Positions 10,940 through 51,729 of a DNA stretch of 51,729 bases are shown here, piece after piece; the first letter of the stretch is position 1; every line of letters begins with the position of its first letter. Both the position numbers and the translations under genes were made by a program. This stretch comes from Escherichia virus TH25, in the sequence record MT446399.1. One strand, given 5' to 3'. The notes under the pieces are model-generated. The model had not been told where the DNA came from. It worked only from the letters and a program-made list of their open reading frames with translations, and did not search any database.

Positions 10940-12045
10940 TAGAAAGACTCCATCGACATTCCACTGTTTAAATACATTTGCTGCCAAGCAGCTTCTTTAC
11001 CACCCATAGCAGTATTGCCACCAAGCATTGCTGTGATGGTAGTCTGGAAGACAGTTTCATGGGTTGAGCCATGATGAACAACTTCTGTAATGAAGTATTT
11101 ATCTTCCATAGCCCAGCGGAATACACTTTGGTCAGTGTTAAGAACAACACCCTTTCCGGTAACAGACGTTACACCATTTGCAAGCAGTTGCTCTCCCAAC
11201 AATGGGGATACATCAAGAATCATTCCTGGTTGATAACTTGCATTCAGGAATGTGTTCAATGAATATGTTGCAATGCCAGCAATCGGGTTGCCTATAACTT
11301 GGTTAGCATCCAGTTTGATTGGTTCACGGTCTTTCGACATTCTGTCTACGGCATCTTTATTCCCGTAGGTATCTGGGAAGATTTGAATCTCACCAGTGGT
11401 TACTGAGAACAGAAGATTGTATTCACCAAGAAGGGTTCTGAACTCTTCCAAGAATGTGTCATGAAATACACGACCGAGTTTAAGAACAGATTTGAAAACA
11501 GATTCATCAACACCAAAAGAAGAAATGGTTGAGAACCCATAGTCAGCACACATTGAACGAATAGCATCCTCAAGAGTTGCACCATTTGGAATGTCATTCA
11601 TTTGAGTGAATTCTGTTGATGCACCATATGCTTTGGAAATGCAGAACAACTGTGTTACGTGTTCTGGTGGACGTCTGAACCCAACTGCGTTTGTAACTAT
11701 GCCAGAAAAGATTGTCGGAAGTTTAGGACCAATTTCAATCCTTACTTCTGAATCAGCCTGTTCTGGACTTTGGTACTTACTATGACCAGCGTTTACTCCA
11801 CGCTCGTCTTCGAAATATCCTGCACGAATTTCAATATACATATCACCATAGGTCTTGTCTTGAAGGAACTTCACTTCATCAACACCAAGGTTGTATAGAG
11901 TAATGTCGGCAGTGTCAGCAGGCCAACCAACAGTTGACCGGATGGTGAAATCAATCTTGTGTGCTTTAAACACAGACTTTGTTTCAGGGTCATCCTTACG
12001 AGAGACAACTATCTCTATACCACGCATCCACGGCATGTTATACAC
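10939..12045 (-). CDS. Tail protein downstream of tape measure (distal tail/hub candidate)
   Basis: 368-aa ORF immediately after the tape-measure gene. Confidence 0.3.
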   Translation of the reverse strand: MYNMPWMRGIEIVVSRKDDPETKSVFKAHKIDFTIRSTVGWPADTADITLYNLGVDEVKFLQDKTYGDMYIEIRAGYFEDERGVNAGHSKYQSPEQADSEVRIEIGPKLPTIFSGIVTNAVGFRRPPEHVTQLFCISKAYGASTEFTQMNDIPNGATLEDAIRSMCADYGFSTISSFGVDESVFKSVLKLGRVFHDTFLEEFRTLLGEYNLLFSVTTGEIQIFPDTYGNKDAVDRMSKDREPIKLDANQVIGNPIAGIATYSLNTFLNASYQPGMILDVSPLLGEQLLANGVTSVTGKGVVLNTDQSVFRWAMEDKYFITEVVHHGSTHETVFQTTITAMLGGNTAMGGKEAAWQQMYLNSGMSMESF

Positions 12046-12111
12046 CTATTGAAATTAATACATGTTCAAATAATATTAAAGAAGAATGCCGAGATAAATC
12101 CCGGCACTTTC

Positions 12112-15100
12112 TTATCTACGTTCCATTGCACCATTACCCATGTTGATTGTTTGGGTAACAGTTTGACCGTTCGGAGTTGACACGGTTGCAGACGCTTGCT
12201 TATTGTTCACAGTAGCTTTGACTTCAACGTTAACTACAGTGGCCTGTGTCTGACCATAAGACAGCCCATTTCTGGTGAAGCCAGTTGCACCTTCTGCAAT
12301 AGAATCGCCCTGAGAAGCCCATTCACGGTACTTCTTGACGCGGTTCTGAGCCTGTAGAGGGACAGCATTGAGCCAATCAGTTCCGTGCTTGTTAATAGCA
12401 TCATCAACAGTTCCGGCACCATCTGTATACGCCGCCATAGCCTTCTCAGCGTCACCATTATAACGCTTGAGCATTGCATCGTAGTAGTCACGACCAACGC
12501 GAGCACGCTCTTCCAGTGAGTTATCACGGGCAGGTGTAACGCCGAATCCTGGGTCACGGGAAGTTGAATCAAGAACCTGCATACGACCTTTGGCACCAGT
12601 CGGAGATGTAACCACCGAACCGTCTGCGTTCAAATCGCGGTTCCCTGACTCTTCTCCTGCGATAAAGTCATATACCGTTCTGGTAGTATCAGCTAAACCA
12701 TTTGACGCTGTACGCGCTACTCTGGCTGCATCTCCACCTGCTTCGATAAATGAACTTCCGTAGGATATTGCAGCTTGCGGAACTGCGTATCCTGGCAGCA
12801 CCCCAGCACGCTCCGTCTGCGCTATTCCTAGCTGTGCAACACCATCGGCATACTGTGAGCTGGCTCCACGGCTTACGTTCTCCTGTGCCTCGTTTACGCT
12901 GTAATCTGTGCGGTCATAGGCGCGAGCCATGCCATCCAGACCTGCCATTTCCATAGCACCAGCGATACGCGCCTGACTCCAGCCCCGCTCCTGACCACGT
13001 TCACGCATTACCCGCGCTAAGGCTACAGGGTCGCCCTGTGCCGCACGAATGTCGCCAATAGTGATAAGACCACGGGTTCCCTGAACGATGTTGACAGCGC
13101 CGCTAGGGTCGCCATTCAGGAGGGTGTTATAGGCACTATGTGTGGTTCGATTGAGTCGGCCAGCTTGTTGCTGATTAAGCCCCAACATTTCCAAGCCCTG
13201 CGACATGGAAGAGTATTCATTAGGGTTATTGACACCAGCGTCTAAAGAGTTTCCATAGAAATCGTTCAGACCTTCTAGCGCCTCGTTACCAATCTGGGCA
13301 GCACCAATAGCCATACCCGCCACACGTCCCCACGGGGTCATCATGAGGGCATTCATTGCACCATTGGATAGTGAGCCTATGCTACCGCCAGCTACGCCAG
13401 CAGCCAATGCGCCACCAGCACGACCGAAGTCATCCGAGAAGCTGCCACCAACATTCCAACCACGACCGCCACCGCCACCGGAACCGCCTCCACCAATGCC
13501 ATAACTACTAGCATCGAAGGTGTCCCAGAAGCCACCACCACCGCCACGACCGCTATTGTCCCCGAAGTCGGCATCTTGTCCACGCAGCTTATTTTCTTCC
13601 TGAGCAGCGAGGATACCTTTCTTGACAGATACTGCCATCAGGTCATTGCCAGTTGTGCTGTCAGAGCCTACGGCAGAGGCTGTGGCTTCACCAACTCCAG
13701 CACTGGTACGGTTGCCTATGAATGGGTCATCGGCTGTACCAGCAGCGGCAGAGTAGCCACGCGTTGACTTCTGCTTAACATCCTTCCAGATGCCATCGCC
13801 AGTCATTGCAGCACGAGCACCTTTGATTAAATCATCATTGGACAAGTCTGAATTAGCTTCAACAAACTCTCGACCAGCATTAAGACGACCAATAGTAGAA
13901 TCAATCTTATCTTTGTTGCGTTCGTACCATCCCTCGTCCTTCTCAATCCATTCCGATACCGTCTTGTCTCCGATTGTCTGAGAGAACAATGCACGACTAC
14001 GGCCAGATACAAGCATACCAAATTGAATTTGGTCGAGATAATCCTTATGCTCACCAGCAGATAGGTTAGAAAACTTCTTAGCCCTTTCAGGGTTCTTGTG
14101 TTCCCAAATCGCGTCATCACCGATAAGGCCATCTGGGGAATACATGAACGACGGATAATTGTCATTTGTTATTGCGCCAGCTTGCTCAATGTCGAATCCA
14201 AACTCTTTGGCGACACGGTTACGAGCAACTTCTTCCGTCCGATGACCTGCTTCGAACATTCGTTGGGTAAATTCACTTGGCCCCTTTCCGCGTTGTAGGC
14301 CAATTTTATCAACCATTGCAGCCCAAGGTCGGGTATATTCATTGTTACCAAGAAACGAACCGACAGTTGAACCAGTAATGTCATATTGCTTGCGGAAGTC
14401 TAACCATTCCTGAGTGCCCTGTTCCATGTTGTGATAACGGATTGGGCCTTCTTGCGGAGCTGGTTGTGGAGCAGAGTCCAAATTAGATATAGCAATGCTC
14501 TCGCGACGGGCGCGAGCAGAGTTCCAACTTGTTGGAGAGTCAAGTTGTGCAAGAAACTCTGTAGAGGGACTCAGTTCTGCAGGTCCAGTATTCCTTAAAC
14601 GTTCAGCAGGGTCGAATGTTCGAGCGACTTCTGCCTCATTATATTGGTGAGCATCCTCAAGAACACCACGAATTGATGTACCAGAGTAACGAGGGTCGTC
14701 ACCAATATCTTTCTTAAGGTTATCGTAGCCGGAACGAACATCTGCAATGTCTGCATAACGAGAAGCAGAGTCCAGGATTAAGTCTCTGTCAGAAGATTGA
14801 GTGCGATATGCATTCATTCCTCTTTCAGCACCACCAGAATAAACCTTTGCCGCAGATTTAACTACGCCAGAAACATCTTGGTAGAGCGTTTTGCTTGCAT
14901 CAGACCAACCTGGAGAACCAGATAAGGATGCAGATAAAGAATATTCAGCCTTAATGCCACCACCAAACGAACCAAGAGGTAAACCAGATGCGTTAAGAGG
15001 TTGACGGGGATGCTGAATCCCACCAACAACAGATTCAGAACCAAGTTGAGGTAACGAATCCATGTATGAAAGTTTTGGCCCCGACTTATTTCCTACATTC

Positions 15101-38662: not shown

Positions 38663-39001
38663 TTAGAATACCGGAGCTTCTTCAACAGCAGCTTCTGCTA
38701 CTACAGCAGCAGCTTCTTCTTCGACCTTAACTTCTTTCACGGTGTCAAACACAGTGCGTTCAACTTCCGGGCAACCAGCTTCAACCCACGGCAGATAGAA
38801 TGCCAGGAATGCAGCAGCGGTGTTGGTCTGCATTGAGCGAGAACGGTCAATCAGCTTGTTGGTGTTTGCGAACGCTTCAACAGCAGCTTCAATTTTAGCG
38901 CCGTTTTCCAGTTTAAAATCGTGTGCGTTACACTCAGCTTCGCTCAGGAACAGGGAACCATCGTTAGCTTCGTACTGAGTTACGGTTACAATCTTAGCCA
39001 T
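38663..39001 (-). CDS. Hypothetical protein
   Basis: 112-aa ORF with Ala/Glu-rich C-terminus; promoter-like motif 79 bp upstream. Confidence 0.4.
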   Translation of the reverse strand: MAKIVTVTQYEANDGSLFLSEAECNAHDFKLENGAKIEAAVEAFANTNKLIDRSRSMQTNTAAAFLAFYLPWVEAGCPEVERTVFDTVKEVKVEEEAAAVVAEAAVEEAPVF

Positions 39002-39079
39002 TTGTATATACCTTATATTAAATAGTTTTGCACGCCACGGTGACGTGACTTAGATAAAATTAAAGAGCCTTTCTCTTTT

Positions 39080-39094
39080 CACATCCAATTAATG
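39080..39094 (-). promoter_or_regulatory. Recurrent motif copy (+ strand CACATCCAATTAATG)
   Basis: One of 10 same-orientation copies of a 15-bp motif; 79 bp upstream of start at 39001. Confidence 0.35.
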
Positions 39095-40408: not shown

Positions 40409-41046
40409 AGGAACTCTCCAATTTTCGATTCAGTGTTTGTGACTTCTCTTCTCATCTTTTGGCCCATGAAACAGGCCACAGGGTTGCGAAAATAGCCCTA
40501 TTTTAGGACTATAGCCAACCGTTTGTGTCAATTCTGGATAACTGCATTGGTGAAGGGTTACTCCCGTTAGGGTGCGGTACGCTAATCACATGAGTGTTGT
40601 CGCCTTACGGCTCAGGCGTGTCACAGAGGCTTTATAACCCTTCCCAATACATTCACCCAAATCCCAGCGTTGGCGTAGCTGGTGGCTTGGTTTTGTGCGG
40701 ATTATGCCACTCTAAGCCCTGTTTGTCCGACTTCCTCGGAGCACCAGCGGCTTGTGGCACAAACCTATTTTCGAATGACTAACATAAGCATGAGGCACAA
40801 CCCTCTAATTATTCAGCCCTAACAGCTTGCTTATTTAGTACCAATTCAACCCAATACATACACAACTATATACAATAGCGAACTATCTGCGAAAACTATC
40901 CGGCCCTATGGCCTAAGTTAAAGTTAATAGTGTGTGATGGAAACATTCCATCGAAAATAACTTTGTAGAATGAGTCGAACATTCTCGCACGTTATCGGCC
41001 GTAACGGTCTACCGAGTTACAAAGTTATTATCTGATGTTGTTTCTT

Positions 41047-41061
41047 CAATTCCAACTAATG
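41047..41061 (-). promoter_or_regulatory. Recurrent motif copy (+ strand CAATTCCAACTAATG)
   Basis: 15-bp motif family member in ORF-free region. Confidence 0.3.
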
Positions 41062-41181
41062 CCAATCTGTGCGACACACTCAGTCCAAGTTGTCCAGACT
41101 TGGTTGCTTAGGTCTGTGCTTATTGCAGTGGACTTCCTAGCAATTACTAATGACTAAGTATGTCGTCAGATTGACACTATT

Positions 41182-41196
41182 CAATTCCAACTAATG
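41182..41196 (-). promoter_or_regulatory. Recurrent motif copy (+ strand CAATTCCAACTAATG)
   Basis: 15-bp motif family member; followed by identical GTTTCAGA as the 41324 copy. Confidence 0.3.
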
Positions 41197-41267
41197 TTTC
41201 AGAATTATTCCAATATTCCAAACAAAAAAGAATAATAAGAATAAAATTAAATAAATGAAGAAAGTGC

Positions 41268-41297
41268 TTGACACCCATTTGGCGATAGGTGTATAAT
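41268..41297 (+). promoter_or_regulatory. Sigma70-type promoter candidate on the plus strand (TTGACA-18 bp-TATAAT with AT-rich upstream element)
   Basis: Consensus -35 at 41268-41273 and consensus -10 at 41292-41297, preceded by about 45 bp of A/T-rich sequence; oriented opposite to all genes. Confidence 0.4.
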
Positions 41298-41323
41298 GCC
41301 TTTCTTCCCTAAGAGGTCAGAAT

Positions 41324-41338
41324 CAAATCCCACTAATG
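41324..41338 (-). promoter_or_regulatory. Recurrent motif copy (+ strand CAAATCCCACTAATG)
   Basis: 15-bp motif family member. Confidence 0.3.
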
Positions 41339-41408
41339 TTTCAGACTAAAGCCGAAGGCCAATGCGAGCACAAAACCCGCTTGGCACTTCGAAGAAACCC
41401 GCCTGGAA

Positions 41409-44823: not shown

Positions 44824-45201
44824 TTAGAATGGAATGTCGTCGTCGAAGTCTTTCGGCTCGTCCGGATTGTAGTTGCTGTTCTGCGTCTGTTGCTGAACAG
44901 GTGCTTGCTGTTGTGCAGAAGGTTGCTGGCGTTGCTGTTGCTGTTGAGCGGCAGCTTGAGGTTGAGCTTTGGCTTTAGCCTTCTCTTCACGCTTACGCAT
45001 CATTTCATCGACTTGTTCTTGGGTCATGATGGTGAGTGCCAGCGAGGTAAATTCATTACCATTGGCTTGCTTGTTCCAACCGGACACCCAATACCAGATT
45101 CCGTCAACGTTAATACGTCCACGAACGTCAGGATGTTTTGGGTCTTTCTTGAAGCCATTGGAACCGATGATGCCAGTATTTACGTCTGAATATTGTGCCA
45201 T
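44824..45201 (-). CDS. SSB-like small protein with bacterial-SSB C-terminal tip (DFDDDIPF)
   Basis: 125 aa; Gln-rich linker then C-terminal PKDFDDDIPF matching the E. coli SSB acidic tip. Confidence 0.55.
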   Translation of the reverse strand: MAQYSDVNTGIIGSNGFKKDPKHPDVRGRINVDGIWYWVSGWNKQANGNEFTSLALTIMTQEQVDEMMRKREEKAKAKAQPQAAAQQQQQRQQPSAQQQAPVQQQTQNSNYNPDEPKDFDDDIPF

Positions 45202-45274
45202 GATTAAGATTCTCTTAAGTTAATTACAGTTTAAGTTTCAGTGACATTGCTAACCACGGAATAGCTTTGTCTCT

Positions 45275-45289
45275 CACATCCAACTAATG
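45275..45289 (-). promoter_or_regulatory. Recurrent motif copy (+ strand CACATCCAACTAATG)
   Basis: Consensus copy 74 bp upstream of start at 45201. Confidence 0.35.
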
Positions 45290-47982: not shown

Positions 47983-48268
47983 TTTTATTCTCCTAAGTTA
48001 AAAGAAAACTCCCGTCATAACGATTGTGGAGGTCTTGTGTTACCTTAATCCACCTTAAAGAATCAGGGAGTTACATATTAGTCTGTGTGTGCTGCTCTCG
48101 GTTACTTCCTAGTATTGCGAAGCTCTTGCACTCCCGCAAACCACACCTTTTGCACAGTCTATATGTGACACATTAAGTGCCGAAAACTACAATGATTAGC
48201 TTGGAGACATAATCTCTCTAAAATCTGTCACACAATTTCAGCAGAATTTACAGAGATTTGGTCTTATT

Positions 48269-48283
48269 CACATGCAACTAATG
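48269..48283 (-). promoter_or_regulatory. Recurrent motif copy (+ strand CACATGCAACTAATG)
   Basis: Motif family member about 290 bp upstream of gene start at 47982. Confidence 0.3.
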
Positions 48284-49183
48284 ATAAATGGACATGCTTA
48301 ATTGCAACCAATTCATCTGCCAAATAGACGAATTTAGTCACAATCAAACATGCTCATTAATTACAGGTTTGCTCCTATCTTGGAATGTATTTGGCACATC
48401 AAGAAGTGGCGCAATAGGTACGGAAAACCGACCATGTACAGCATAATAAAACTAATTAAATAAAGGGTTTTATCCCAATATTGTCACAATATTTACATGC
48501 GATGATAAAGCCTTCGCTTGGCTGGAAGCCAGTATTCATGCGGGTTGCAAGAATATTGGGTGAATATTGATACATTTATTACATGCGAAATTGGCACAAA
48601 TACTGTTACAAAATTAACATGCCGGATTGGTAGACAATTGTATCTTCGAGGTGATTAGTCCTCTAACAATTCTGCCACATTCTAACATGCCAATTTGTAG
48701 CAATATTTACATGCCATACTGTAGCAATATTGCCACAATATTTGTTGCTCAAAATCGGGGCGGCTTCTGCGTGAAAACGAGAGGCTTTGCTCCGACTCTT
48801 CTCTTCTTTCGAATTCTGATTGAAAGAAAGAAGCATGTCCAAAAGTTCCAGTCTTGCCAAAGTTATCTCCCGGCTTGTGGGTGGGCCTTGATAATAGGAG
48901 ATGGAGCAATATTGAAACAAGTGAACATGCTTAGGTTTGCTGACTTTCTTGTAACTTAATCAAGATGGCTAACACGATGTTCTGTTGTTAGTTCAGCACC
49001 GGAAGAACAGTTTCGAATGATAATCCTACTTCACACATGGTTGCTGGAACTTTGTCCGGCCAAAGACAGGGAGTTCAATGATTGCCACATCATTACAACG
49101 CTGTGTGTTTAGTTGACATGCTGAAATGTTTCTAGAATGATTTCAACATGACATGCGGAAGATTTCTCCGTATTCTGTTACTT

Positions 49184-49198
49184 CACATCCAACTAATG
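49184..49198 (-). promoter_or_regulatory. Recurrent motif copy (+ strand CACATCCAACTAATG)
   Basis: Consensus copy at right edge of repeat region. Confidence 0.3.
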
Positions 49199-49249
49199 TC
49201 GAATATCGGGACAATATCACATGCAGCAATATTGTCCGAATATTGGGAA

Positions 49250-49408: not shown

Positions 49409-49437
49409 TATAAAAGTCTCCAATTGGTTATTAGATT

Positions 49438-49452
49438 CACATGCAACTAATG
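49438..49452 (-). promoter_or_regulatory. Recurrent motif copy (+ strand CACATGCAACTAATG)
   Basis: 30 bp upstream of ATG 49408. Confidence 0.35.
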
Positions 49453-49472: not shown

Positions 49473-51413
49473 TTACTGGCAGAAGTAGTAAGCGTGTTCG
49501 CTCATCAGAAGTTCTTCTGTTACGATGTTCTCATGGTACATGTTGATGCCACCAAGTTGCTTGGACAGAGATTCAAACTGATTATTGTGAACAAAGATTT
49601 CAACATAAGCAGAACGAATAACTTCCATCATTTTAGGAGCATCAGCTAAGCAGCAACGGAAACAATCGTGAATTGAAGTGAAACCACGAAGACCAGCTTC
49701 TTTAGCTTTGACTGCAACAGTACGAGCAACCAATGCGTCAATACCTTGAATGTAGTTAACAACGAAGGTACGCTTGAATTCTTCTTTAGTTGGATTGGAC
49801 TCACGAATGGTCCAAGGCTTATTCTCCTGAATCTGACCAAAGATGACACGAGTTTGAGAGTCAACACGAATGCTGAACGCATCACAAACATCACGAGATG
49901 GGAAGCAAGGCTTCATTACAACCTGACCATCAGTGTGCTTATAGGTGATGTACTCTTTGTTGAGTTCAACACAACGGTTGTATGCAGCATCAGCAGCTTT
50001 CTCGATGAACATGTTAATCTTAGCACCCAATGCATTATGGATTGCTTCTACACAAAGTTCAGCAAATGCTTCTGCTTTCTCCATAGGAATCTGGAGCGCT
50101 TCTGTCATGTATGCGATGAAGTCAGAAGAACCAGTTAATGCAGCTTTACCACCACCATATTGGATAGCCATGTATGGAGTTTTGATAAACTTACGACCAG
50201 CTTTCGGATTCAAGAATTCATCCATAATTTCAGCGGATGGTTTCATTGAAGAACGGTCAAGCAACTTCAACAGTTCACGAAGAGATAACTGGTATGGGTC
50301 AGATGCTTTAGTCTCAGAATCAACCAGACCTGTTGCACGAGCCATCTCCATGTTACCAGCAATGAATGCCAGATATTGAGTACCAGAACATTTAGCATCT
50401 AAGCCAAAGCCTACACGAGAATCACACTCACCTGTAGTCTCAAACTTGAACCAATCCAGAGCTAATCGAACATAAGTGAATGGCTTAGAAGGACGCTCAC
50501 CTTTAGGCATGTTCAGCATACGAGCCAAAGAACCAGCAGGATTCTGTGCAACATAAGTTAAACGTTTAGCAGAAGTCCAGTCTCCACCAGCAATATCTTC
50601 CAGCTCAAGCATGAACATGTTGTATGCCAGAGTTGTAGAACCATCAGCATTAAACTTGCTCACAGTGTTCTCAACATTGTGGGAATACAGGCAACGAGCA
50701 AAGTCAGATGATTGTGGGTTAGGACCAGCACACGCTACGTGATACAGACGACCACGGTTATCAGCAAAGTAGTCAGAGAACAGAGTGTCCTGACCAACCA
50801 TTGCTACAGCATTGTTCCAAACATGGAGTTCAGTCTGGATTGCTTCTGGCATCTGCAAGCCACCAAATGTACGTTGTTCTAACATGGAAGAGATAACCTT
50901 AACCATTGTTGCATCGACGTGATATTCAGTATCTTGCAGGAATTCGATTGCAGCTTTCAGAGTCTTGGATGGCTTAACTTTGCCACCTTTAACGAAAGGC
51001 TTGCGACGAGATTCAGTTGTTACCTTCTCAGTGAATGGAACTGAGGTATCTTTGGTTGTAACCAGTTCAACCCATGCGTCAGTCATCTGGAACGATTTGT
51101 CCTCGTTCATGGTGATGAAACCGAAGTGTTTAGCCAGACCAATCAGGTTGATAGCTGGGTCAACATAGTGCATTGATTTCAAGTCGTTGTTGTAACGGTT
51201 GGCATCAGCAATAGAAGCAGAAGCCAGTTCAACCATCGAGATAGCCGGAATAACGTCATCACGCGTGAAAGACGTCATCATCTTGAATATGGCTAAGGCA
51301 GCAATAGCACAAGTCTGGGGCTGCATATAGTTCTGCTTCTCTTTGGCACGATATACCAGAGCGGTGATAGCAGGAACAACAGATTTGATAGTTTGAGTAG
51401 TGATAGTAGTCAT
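49473..51413 (-). CDS. Single-subunit DNA-dependent RNA polymerase (T7-like, compact)
   Basis: Blocks matching T7 RNAP: DNRGRLYHV (DWRGRVYAV), LDAKCSGTQY (DGSCSGIQH, motif A), YMAIQYGGGK (MTLAYGSKE, motif B), TSIHDCF (LIHDSFG, motif C); ATG at 51413 has GGAG 9 nt upstream; 646 aa. Confidence 0.8.
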   Translation of the reverse strand: MTTITTQTIKSVVPAITALVYRAKEKQNYMQPQTCAIAALAIFKMMTSFTRDDVIPAISMVELASASIADANRYNNDLKSMHYVDPAINLIGLAKHFGFITMNEDKSFQMTDAWVELVTTKDTSVPFTEKVTTESRRKPFVKGGKVKPSKTLKAAIEFLQDTEYHVDATMVKVISSMLEQRTFGGLQMPEAIQTELHVWNNAVAMVGQDTLFSDYFADNRGRLYHVACAGPNPQSSDFARCLYSHNVENTVSKFNADGSTTLAYNMFMLELEDIAGGDWTSAKRLTYVAQNPAGSLARMLNMPKGERPSKPFTYVRLALDWFKFETTGECDSRVGFGLDAKCSGTQYLAFIAGNMEMARATGLVDSETKASDPYQLSLRELLKLLDRSSMKPSAEIMDEFLNPKAGRKFIKTPYMAIQYGGGKAALTGSSDFIAYMTEALQIPMEKAEAFAELCVEAIHNALGAKINMFIEKAADAAYNRCVELNKEYITYKHTDGQVVMKPCFPSRDVCDAFSIRVDSQTRVIFGQIQENKPWTIRESNPTKEEFKRTFVVNYIQGIDALVARTVAVKAKEAGLRGFTSIHDCFRCCLADAPKMMEVIRSAYVEIFVHNNQFESLSKQLGGINMYHENIVTEELLMSEHAYYFCQ

Positions 51414-51481
51414 TTGTAAGTCTCCAAGATTGTGTATGATTTGAATGAAACGGATTATAATAGCGTAGCCATTACACAATT

Positions 51482-51496
51482 CACGTCCAACTAATA
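51482..51496 (-). promoter_or_regulatory. Recurrent motif copy (+ strand CACGTCCAACTAATA)
   Basis: 69 bp upstream of RNAP ATG; a TATAAT hexamer (minus strand, 51454-51459) lies between motif and gene. Confidence 0.35.
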
Positions 51497-51729
51497 TCAC
51501 AAACCTGTGCCATTGTTAGCACAGCACGGAGACTTTGACCTTGACTCATAAGCGAAGCGCCTAACTTGGTGTTGTTTGAAAGCCGATAGGCTGTAGAAAA
51601 AGTTGGGGTAGGGACCGTATTTAAGTCCGATAGGACGTTGGGCTTCCCCTCCCCGCCACCTCAAAAATAAAAATAATATTGCCACAATTCTAGTCTCATT
51701 AATATTGAAACAATTTGAGTCTCATTAAT

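What the first reader, a model, noticed from the sequence alone, without database searches (positions are those of the whole stretch)
49473..51413. Compact (646 aa) T7-like RNA polymerase lacking most of the N-terminal domain
The catalytic motifs are clearly T7-like, but the protein is about 240 aa shorter than T7 RNAP, which is 883 aa (the pasted reference translation was used for comparison). The missing part corresponds to the N-terminal promoter-melting and AT-rich-recognition region. Its size is close to the combined N4 RNAP II subunits, which need an accessory factor to use promoters. The phage may therefore rely on a separate specificity factor among the early proteins, which fits the unusual promoter-like motif.
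Basis: partly seen in the sequence, partly recalled or inferred. Interest (0 to 1): 0.5.

Follow-up and report, generated by a model that had tools for sequence, protein, structure and literature searches.

The report
Compact T7-like RNA polymerase of a chasevirus
This gene is the already-annotated single-subunit RNA polymerase of phiEcoM-GJ1-like (Chaseviridae) coliphages; it really is a trimmed T7-type enzyme, but it keeps a small promoter-binding module, so its need for a helper factor is open rather than implied.

Summary
The ORF is real. It runs 49473-51413 on the minus strand, encodes 646 aa, and has a GGAG ribosome site 8 nt upstream of the ATG. It is the gp01 RNA polymerase (RNAP) of Carltongylesvirus phages: 99% aa identity to GenBank phages and 95.5% to phiEcoM-GJ1. 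Homologues down to 35% identity are almost all 604-670 aa, and no other ORF in the window matches a T7 N-terminal domain. The small size is therefore genuine.

The 237-aa deficit is spread out. About 126 aa are missing before T7 residue 213, by inference residues 1-67 and subdomain H. Another 37 aa are missing from the thumb, and the rest come from small deletions. A reduced, winged-helix-like promoter-binding module is kept, with a shortened beta-hairpin homologous to T7's intercalating hairpin. The specificity loop is kept too (T7 R746 = R522).

A 17-bp motif, CATTAGTTGGATGTGAA, occurs nine times. All copies are on the coding strand and outside the supported coding sequences, and the motif is conserved in three other genera.

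Self-sufficient promoter recognition is somewhat more likely than dependence on a factor, but neither is shown. The family is already known; interest is modest.

The parts
49473..51413 (-). RNAP coding sequence, 646 aa plus stop; orthologue of phiEcoM-GJ1 gp01
   Evidence: ORF list. Pfam PF00940 and phrog_414 hits. 93.7% nt and 95.5% aa identity to GJ1 gp01, and 99.4% aa identity to phages TH29 and PYps16T.
51422..51425 (-). GGAG ribosome-binding site, 8 nt upstream of the ATG
   Evidence: Sequence read directly. The same SD and start are tabulated for ST32 ORF1.
51039..51413 (-). Residues 1-125: reduced N-terminal promoter-binding module with winged-helix-like topology (helices 6-27, 32-46, 57-73, 76-81, 87-96, a beta-hairpin, then helix 112-118)
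51078..51122 (-). Residues 98-112 (GFITMNEDKSFQMTD): beta-hairpin aligned to the T7 intercalating-hairpin region 226-249, 7 aa shorter
   Evidence: Strands 100-102 and 107-110 in both models. hhalign places the gap at T7 232-238.
50964..51038 (-). Residues 126-150: conserved basic loop (RRKPFVKGGKVKPSK, net +6) holding the only invariant N-terminal residue, R136
   Evidence: Alignment conservation. Charge calculation. Aligns to T7 ~288-317 with 20-aa and 8-aa deletions.
50799..50966 (-). Residues 150-205: end of the N-terminal domain plus a truncated thumb, missing T7 349-385
   Evidence: hmmsearch of the family profile against PDB pairs profile 162-618 with T7 318-850 at E 1e-17, with a 37-aa gap. 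hhalign agrees.
49476..50777 (-). Residues 213-646: palm and fingers catalytic core with DxRGRxY, motifs A, B and C, and the C-terminal YYFCQ
49791..49877 (-). Residues 513-541: specificity-loop beta-hairpin (FSIRVDSQTRVIFGQIQENKPWTIRESNP)
   Evidence: Aligned to T7 739-770 with R746 = R522. Predicted strands 522-525 and 534-537. Strands are conserved and the tip is variable among genera.
51480..51496 (-). Promoter-like motif TATTAGTTGGACGTGAA, 66 nt upstream of the RNAP ATG
   Evidence: Equivalent sites lie upstream of the RNAP gene in Myduc and PM1.
49436..49452 (-). Promoter-like motif CATTAGTTGCATGTGAA, 20 nt after the RNAP stop codon
   Evidence: Equivalent sites lie just after the RNAP gene in Y2, Myduc and PM1. 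GJ1 annotates its own motif copies as 'putative phage promoter'.
49182..49198 (-). Promoter-like motif, exact consensus CATTAGTTGGATGTGAA, intergenic
48267..48283 (-). Promoter-like motif, intergenic
45273..45289 (-). Promoter-like motif, 71 nt upstream of the SSB gene (44824-45201)
41322..41338 (-). Promoter-like motif, first of three tandem copies in a 1-kb non-coding stretch
41180..41196 (-). Promoter-like motif, second tandem copy
41045..41061 (-). Promoter-like motif, third tandem copy
39078..39094 (-). Promoter-like motif, 76 nt upstream of ORF 38663-39001

Best explanation
The gene encodes the Chaseviridae (phiEcoM-GJ1 gp01-type) single-subunit RNA polymerase.

Shown: it is a full, catalytically complete T7-family enzyme carried on one 646-aa polypeptide. 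Relative to T7 it lacks about 126 residues ahead of T7 position 213, 37 residues of the thumb, and several smaller loops. It keeps a small winged-helix-like promoter-binding module with a shortened hairpin homologous to T7's intercalating hairpin, and it keeps the specificity loop.

Inferred: the lost N-terminal parts are T7 1-67 (including the C-helix) and subdomain H (~150-205), and the AT-rich loop is cut down.

Inferred mechanism: the gene sits at the leading end of the genome and is transcribed first by host RNAP. The enzyme then recognises the 17-bp element CATTAGTTG(G/A)A(T/A)GTGAA upstream of the early and middle gene clusters, including a copy in front of its own gene that would give positive feedback. 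It reads the element with the specificity loop and the reduced N-terminal module, and it opens the DNA with the short hairpin. It probably needs no dedicated specificity factor. Because it lacks the elements that T7 refolds to leave the promoter, it may enter elongation without a large N-terminal rearrangement, as reported for N4 RNAPII.
For: Identity and true size. Homologues are 604-670 aa down to 35% identity, and only Chaseviridae records match in the phage collection.

No split subunit: a T7 N-terminal-domain profile finds nothing in the six-frame translation of the window. The gene is the first gene of the genome, and in circularly permuted records the upstream neighbour is RNR-beta.

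Catalytic residues.

Domain map.

Retained hairpin and specificity loop.

Motif: 11 matches against 0.54 expected, all on the coding strand. The nine strong sites lie in the ~9% of the genome outside the supported coding sequences. The motif is conserved with the same placement in Erwinia Y2, Proteus Myduc and Pectobacterium PM1, whose RNAPs are 66-71% identical. The distant Vibrio phage VPs20 (RNAP ~35% identical) instead carries a different repeated element, GCTCGCCCACTAG, downstream of its RNAP gene.

Cofactors: no homologue of N4 gp1 or gp2.
Against: Nothing here is biochemical. No transcription start has been mapped for any chasevirus, and the ICTV profile states that the promoters 'have not yet been identified'.

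The hairpin is 7 aa shorter and lacks a counterpart of T7 V237, so it may not intercalate.

The upstream half of the motif (CATTAGTTG) is highly specific, and a separate DNA-binding protein could equally well read it.

Only nine sites exist, all in the first ~13 kb, so late-gene transcription is unexplained.
Confidence: 0.55

Rival explanations
1. Factor-dependent minimal RNAP. The trimmed N-terminal domain can no longer find or open promoters by itself. One of the small early proteins, or the phage SSB, would bind the 17-bp motif or melted DNA and recruit the polymerase, as gp2 or Drc does for N4-type RNAPII and Mtf1 or TFB2M does for mitochondrial RNAPs.
Against: There is no gp1 or gp2 homologue and no recognisable DNA-binding regulator among ten early proteins. 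The motif is a long, specific 17-mer, not a short AT-rich melting element. The specificity loop is retained and not acidic, whereas the N4 RNAPII loop is described as too negatively charged to bind DNA. By sequence the enzyme is far closer to T7-like RNAPs (E 1e-28) than to N4 gp16 (E 5e-8).
Confidence: 0.3
2. The 17-bp motif is not this polymerase's promoter. It could be an operator for a phage regulator or a processing or termination signal, and the RNAP would use other, unrecognised start sites.
For: No start sites have been mapped. Motif copies are confined to the first quarter of the genome. One copy follows a terminator-like stem-loop.
Against: The motif shows strict strand bias and intergenic placement 30-80 nt ahead of several start codons. 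Its size is that of a T7 promoter. It is conserved across genera, and a different repeated element sits in the same kind of position in the clade with a divergent RNAP. It does not fit a sigma-70 promoter.
Confidence: 0.1
3. Annotation artefact. The true protein would be longer through an upstream start, or the N-terminal domain would be encoded by a separate gene, as in the split N4 RNAPII.
For: The ORF is open for 29 more codons up to a GTG at 51500. Some database calls are longer, for example 704 aa.
Against: The extension overlaps the promoter-like motif and has no ribosome site. GGAG precedes the ATG. N-termini coincide across genera. Only 316 nt remain upstream in the window, and RNR-beta is the upstream neighbour in permuted genomes. 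No ORF in any frame matches a T7 N-terminal-domain profile or N4 gp15.
Confidence: 0.02

Closest known systems
phiEcoM-GJ1 gp01 and other Chaseviridae RNA polymerases (ST32 ORF1, Y2 gp01, PM1_001, Myduc 001)
   Same: It is an orthologue: 93-99% aa identity within the genus and 66-71% to other Cleopatravirinae. It has the same position as the first gene, the same length (631-648 aa), and the same flanking 17-bp motif.
   Different: No difference of substance. The tip of the specificity loop differs by a few residues from GJ1.
T7 RNA polymerase and Autographiviridae RNAPs (Pfam PF00940 + PF14700)
   Same: Right-hand fold, all catalytic residues, DxxGR, specificity loop, the hairpin region, the C-terminal aromatic foot, and a promoter-sized 17-bp motif.
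   Different: It is 237 aa shorter than T7 and about 130 aa shorter than the smallest sampled autographivirid enzyme, which span 779-893 aa. PF14700 is not detectable. It has no counterpart of roughly T7 1-67 and subdomain H, a shorter hairpin and a truncated thumb. It is carried by a myovirus, and a promoter-like site lies in front of its own gene.
N4 RNAPII (gp15 + gp16; PDB 6DT7)
   Different: It is one polypeptide, not a heterodimer. There are no gp1 or gp2 homologues. Sequence similarity is weaker than to T7. N4 RNAPII uses a short AT-rich -7..+2 promoter on melted DNA, whereas here the motif is a specific 17-mer.
Mitochondrial RNA polymerases (yeast Rpo41, human POLRMT)
   Different: They are much larger, carry PPR and other N-terminal extensions, and depend on Mtf1 or TFB2M. 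Sequence similarity is limited to motif C and the palm.

Membership tests
[quoted passage not shown] | PF00940 domain above the gathering score | tested here: met
   67.1 bits against a cut-off of 22, residues 329-620.
[quoted passage not shown] | Catalytic motifs: DxxGR, motif A Asp, motif B R/K/Y/G, motif C His-Asp | tested here: met
   D218/R222, D339, R407/K411/Y419/G420 and H582/D583 align to T7 D421/R425, D537, R627/K631/Y639/G640 and H811/D812. Most are invariant in 65 homologues.
[quoted passage not shown] | Right-hand polymerase fold superposable on solved T7 or mtRNAP structures | tested here: met
[quoted passage not shown] | Specificity loop (beta-hairpin in the fingers that reads the promoter) | tested here: met
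   Residues 513-541 align to T7 739-770, with R746 = R522. A beta-hairpin is predicted there. Its function was not tested.
[quoted passage not shown] | Full N-terminal domain (Pfam PF14700 RPOL_N) | tested here: not met
   No PF14700 hit at E <= 1, and none among the precomputed domains of 116 homologues. All listed T7 relatives carry it.
[quoted passage not shown] | Intercalating beta-hairpin | tested here: inconclusive
   A hairpin at residues 98-112 aligns to T7 226-249, but it is 7 aa shorter and lacks a counterpart of V237. Intercalation is not testable here.
[quoted passage not shown] | AT-rich recognition loop | tested here: inconclusive
   Only a non-significant colinear alignment (E 0.05) places RAKEKQ opposite T7 KAKRGK. 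Net charge is +2 against +5.
[quoted passage not shown] | Factor-independent, promoter-specific initiation | not testable with these tools
   Needs in vitro transcription. The only evidence here is an indirect one, the conserved motif.
Chaseviridae gp01-type RNAP | High identity and synteny with phiEcoM-GJ1 gp01 (first gene, followed by small early ORFs, all on one strand) | tested here: met
N4 RNAPII-type minimal, factor-dependent RNAP | Heterodimer encoded by two adjacent genes | tested here: not met
   A single uninterrupted ORF.
N4 RNAPII-type minimal, factor-dependent RNAP | Cofactors gp1 and gp2 (or Drc) encoded by the phage | tested here: not met
   phmmer of N4 gp1 and gp2 against all minus-strand ORFs finds nothing at E <= 10. 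Drc was not tested, and functional analogues cannot be excluded.
N4 RNAPII-type minimal, factor-dependent RNAP | Truncated N-terminal domain and thumb | tested here: met
N4 RNAPII-type minimal, factor-dependent RNAP | Closest sequence relationship is to gp15 and gp16 | tested here: not met
   gp15 gives no match and gp16 gives E 5e-8, against E 1.4e-28 for the T7-like profile.

The most novel reading that the evidence does not exclude
The chasevirus enzyme may be the smallest self-sufficient, promoter-specific T7-family RNA polymerase carried on one chain. It would read a 17-bp promoter with the specificity loop plus a winged-helix-like remnant of the N-terminal domain. It would escape the promoter without the C-helix and subdomain-H refolding that defines the T7 initiation-to-elongation switch. 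That would give a natural minimal scaffold for in vitro transcription and orthogonal expression, and a test of which parts of T7's N-terminal domain are dispensable.
Probability: 0.35. Interest if true: 0.55.

Novelty: already known. Interest (0 to 1): 0.3.

Why it matters
The gene family has been annotated since 2008 and defines the Chaseviridae, so the gene itself is not new.

What remains open is how transcription works. The ICTV profile says chasevirus promoters are unidentified. I found no biochemical or transcriptomic study of this polymerase in the searchable literature.

The domain map given here narrows the question. The enzyme is not simply 'T7 without its N-terminal domain'. It is T7 with a cut-down promoter-binding module, and it has lost the pieces that T7 refolds on promoter escape.

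If it works alone on the 17-bp motif, it would be a useful 73-kDa alternative to T7 RNAP and a natural deletion experiment on the T7 mechanism. If it needs a helper, it would be a second, independent case of the N4 RNAPII solution.

Tried and rejected
1. A start further upstream (GTG at 51500). Rejected: it has no ribosome site, it overlaps the motif, and N-termini coincide across genera.

2. A separate N-terminal subunit elsewhere in the genome. Rejected: a T7 residue 1-325 profile and N4 gp15 find nothing in the six-frame ORFs.

4. The motif as a sigma-70 promoter. Rejected: there is no consistent -10 element at the right spacing, and the consensus scan finds no minus-strand promoter upstream of the gene.

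5. Homologues of N4 gp1 and gp2. None found.

6. PHROG and Pfam annotation of ten early proteins. This gave an SSB, an endolysin-like peptidase, an anti-restriction protein and proteins of unknown function, but no regulator.

7. Rfam and tRNA scans of the whole window. Nothing found.

8. A single-sequence T7 comparison aligned only from residue 197. A 17-sequence T7-like profile was needed to reach residue 87. Residues 1-86 stayed below significance.

9. The 2008 phiEcoM-GJ1 paper and the 2018 N4 RNAPII structure paper could not be read. Statements about them rely on papers that cite them.

10. No tool returned model coordinates or residue-level structural alignments. The mapping of the first 86 residues is therefore an inference.

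Full report
WHAT IS THERE

The window is a complete or near-complete genome of a phiEcoM-GJ1-like myophage (Chaseviridae, Carltongylesvirus). It is written in reverse orientation relative to the reference.

- The reported span matches GenBank phages at 94-97% nucleotide identity, and phiEcoM-GJ1 gp01 'RNA polymerase' at 93.7%.
- At protein level it is 99.4% identical to phages TH29 and PYps16T.
- The far end of the window carries the RNR-beta gene, which is the last gene of GJ1-type genomes.
- The ORF runs 49473-51500 on the minus strand. The ATG at 51413 gives 646 aa and is preceded by GGAG 8 nt upstream. ST32 ORF1 (646 aa) was annotated with the same start.

IS THE SMALL SIZE REAL?

Yes, on three grounds.

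- Of 116 homologues found among 5.8 billion proteins, nearly all are 604-670 aa, down to 35% identity. Their N-termini coincide across genera.
- Only 316 nt lie upstream in the window. In circularly permuted records the upstream neighbour is RNR-beta.
- A profile of T7 residues 1-325, and N4 gp15, find nothing in a six-frame translation of the whole window. No split-off N-terminal subunit exists.

For scale, T7 RNAP is 883 aa. Nine sampled Autographiviridae enzymes are 779-893 aa. Of 2727 phage records matching T7 RNAP, 2580 cover at least 80% of it.

IS IT A T7-FAMILY ENZYME?

Yes.

- It hits Pfam PF00940 at 67 bits and phrog_414 at 5e-95.
- A profile-profile alignment against 17 T7-like sequences gives 99.8% probability and E 1.4e-28 over query 87-645 against T7 213-883.
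- Every T7 catalytic residue has its counterpart: D421/R423/R425/Y427 = D218/R220/R222/Y224, D537 = D339, R627/K631/Y639/G640 = R407/K411/Y419/G420, and H811/D812 = H582/D583. Most are invariant in the family alignment.
- The AlphaFold2 model is confident (pLDDT 92.4, pTM 0.86).

WHERE THE 237 MISSING RESIDUES ARE

Within the significantly aligned part, the deletions relative to T7 are as follows (the thumb gap is independently seen).

| T7 residues | Length | Location |
|---|---|---|
| 232-238 | 7 aa | tip of the intercalating hairpin |
| 268-287 | 20 aa | N-terminal domain |
| 306-313 | 8 aa | N-terminal domain |
| 349-385 | 37 aa | thumb |
| 471-479 | 9 aa | palm |
| 592-614 | 23 aa | fingers |
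| 666-670 | 5 aa | fingers |
| 711-721 | 11 aa | fingers |
| 852-861 | 10 aa | C-terminal region |

Three small insertions in the query partly offset these. The remaining 126 residues of deficit lie before T7 position 213, where query 1-86 stands opposite T7 1-212.

That stretch is not alignable with significance. The best local alignment (E 0.05, probability 1%) is colinear. It puts helix 6-27 on T7 helix D, RAKEKQ on T7's KAKRGK (the AT-rich loop, which would be shortened), and helix 32-46 on helix E. A weak HMMER alignment agrees with this.

If that alignment holds, the lost parts are T7 1-67, subdomain H (~150-205) and part of the AT-rich loop. I treat this as inference. Pfam's N-terminal model PF14700, present in all listed T7 relatives, is not detected here.

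WHAT THE N-TERMINUS LOOKS LIKE

- The 'wing' is the beta-hairpin 98-112. Together with the helices on either side (residues 87-123) it is significantly homologous to T7 213-264, the region of helix I and the intercalating hairpin.

The module is therefore a cut-down T7 promoter-binding domain, not a foreign acquisition.

A conserved basic loop follows (RRKPFVKGGKVKPSK, net +6). It contains R136, the only invariant N-terminal residue.

The N-terminal 200 residues have relatives in only 11 of 1.84 billion representative proteins, so this form of the domain is narrow in distribution.

THE SPECIFICITY LOOP IS KEPT

Residues 513-541 align to T7 739-770, with R746 = R522, and form a predicted hairpin. 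The net charge is +1, against +2 in T7 and -1 in N4 gp16. The N4 RNAPII loop has been described as too negatively charged to read DNA (citing Molodtsov and Murakami 2018).

THE PROMOTER-LIKE MOTIF

CATTAGTTGGATGTGAA has 11 matches at up to 3 mismatches, against 0.54 expected, all on the coding strand.

- Nine strong copies lie at 51496, 49452, 49198, 48283, 45289, 41338, 41196, 41061 and 39094 (upper coordinates).
- Seven are strictly intergenic. The other two fall only in the unsupported upstream extensions of ORFs. The genome is about 91% ORF.
- One copy is 66 nt ahead of the RNAP ATG and another is 20 nt after its stop codon.
- GJ1's record calls two copies of the motif downstream of gp01 'putative phage promoter'.
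- The motif recurs with the same placement and strand in Erwinia Y2, Proteus Myduc and Pectobacterium PM1. Lineage-specific variation is confined to positions 10 and 12.
- Vibrio phage VPs20, whose RNAP is about 35% identical, lacks the motif. It has another repeated element, GCTCGCCCACTAG, six times downstream of its RNAP gene.

This co-variation between polymerase clade and motif is what T7-type promoter systems show. It rests on few taxa, and no start sites have been mapped. The ICTV profile says the promoters are unidentified.

COFACTOR QUESTION

No homologue of N4 gp1 or gp2 is present. Ten early proteins gave an SSB, a peptidase or endolysin, an anti-restriction protein and proteins of unknown function.

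[quoted passage not shown] It has a truncated thumb and N-terminal domain, binds only single-stranded DNA, uses a -7..+2 AT-rich promoter, and needs gp2.

The present enzyme shares the trimming. It does not share the split gene, the cofactors or the promoter type, and by sequence it is much nearer to T7.

I therefore rate self-sufficient recognition at about 0.55 and factor dependence at about 0.3. Both are inferences.

COMPARISON AND NOVELTY

The protein belongs to a family named in the title of the 2008 phiEcoM-GJ1 paper, and it is a hallmark of the Chaseviridae. It is already known.

Compact T7-family polymerases of 600-700 aa also exist in other phage lineages, according to predicted-structure matches, so the small size is not unique.

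What I could not find in the searchable literature is any dissection of its domains, any biochemistry, or any transcriptome. The ICTV text even calls it a 'large' single-subunit RNAP.

VERDICT

This is a correct but ordinary gene call, with a real and under-described architectural reduction. The cofactor proposal is possible but is not the favoured reading.

Noticed in passing
L008 (Vibrio phage vB_VpaM_VPs20) 2317, 2351, 2472, 3554, 5106, 8237: A different repeated intergenic element, (GGGCTCG-n3-)GCTCGCCCACTAG, occurs six times on the coding strand downstream of the RNAP gene of this Nefertitivirinae phage. It is a candidate promoter for the divergent RNAP clade.
   Followed up: partly
L006 1-3202 (Proteus phage Myduc); also Mangalitsa and 4HA13 records: The RNAP gene and the first motif copies lie inside the long direct terminal repeat predicted by PhageTerm. 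The polymerase gene would then be present at both genome ends and would enter the cell first.
   Followed up: no
L018 6881-11947 (Hafnia alvei chromosome); L021 8515-19732 (Pseudomonas brenneri chromosome): Compact RNAP homologues (52% and 36% identity) sit in bacterial chromosomes next to integrase, holin or lysozyme, and tail or baseplate genes. These look like integrated prophage relatives of a family described as strictly lytic.
   Followed up: partly
window 47983-49249 and 40409-41408: Two stretches of about 1.0-1.3 kb have no convincing ORF. They carry two and three tandem motif copies respectively. There is no Rfam family and no tRNA in them, so their content is unexplained.
   Followed up: partly
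window 51505-51524 (minus strand): A terminator-like stem-loop (CTGTGCTAACAATGGCACAG followed by a T-rich tail) lies immediately upstream of the motif copy that precedes the RNAP gene.
   Followed up: no
PP952070.1 (hit H9): A record named 'Staphylococcus phage Pel53', with host Staphylococcus hyicus, is 96.5% identical over the RNAP gene to these coliphages and Yersinia phages. The host assignment looks doubtful.
   Followed up: no
L008 1-2157, alignment: The VPs20 RNAP is annotated as 718 aa, starting at base 1 of the record. It shows an insertion of about 55 aa between the first two N-terminal helices, the position that would correspond to T7's AT-rich loop. The annotated start is uncertain.
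   Followed up: no
window 12001-14000: GC content is 0.515 against about 0.44 for the rest of the genome, with a strongly negative GC skew. This is a compositional outlier in the late region.
   Followed up: no
literature: The sources disagree. The GJ1 GenBank record annotates 'putative phage promoters', and a 2021 review says chasevirus RNAP uses promoters of similar sequence. The 2022 ICTV profile says the promoter sequences have not been identified.
   Followed up: partly
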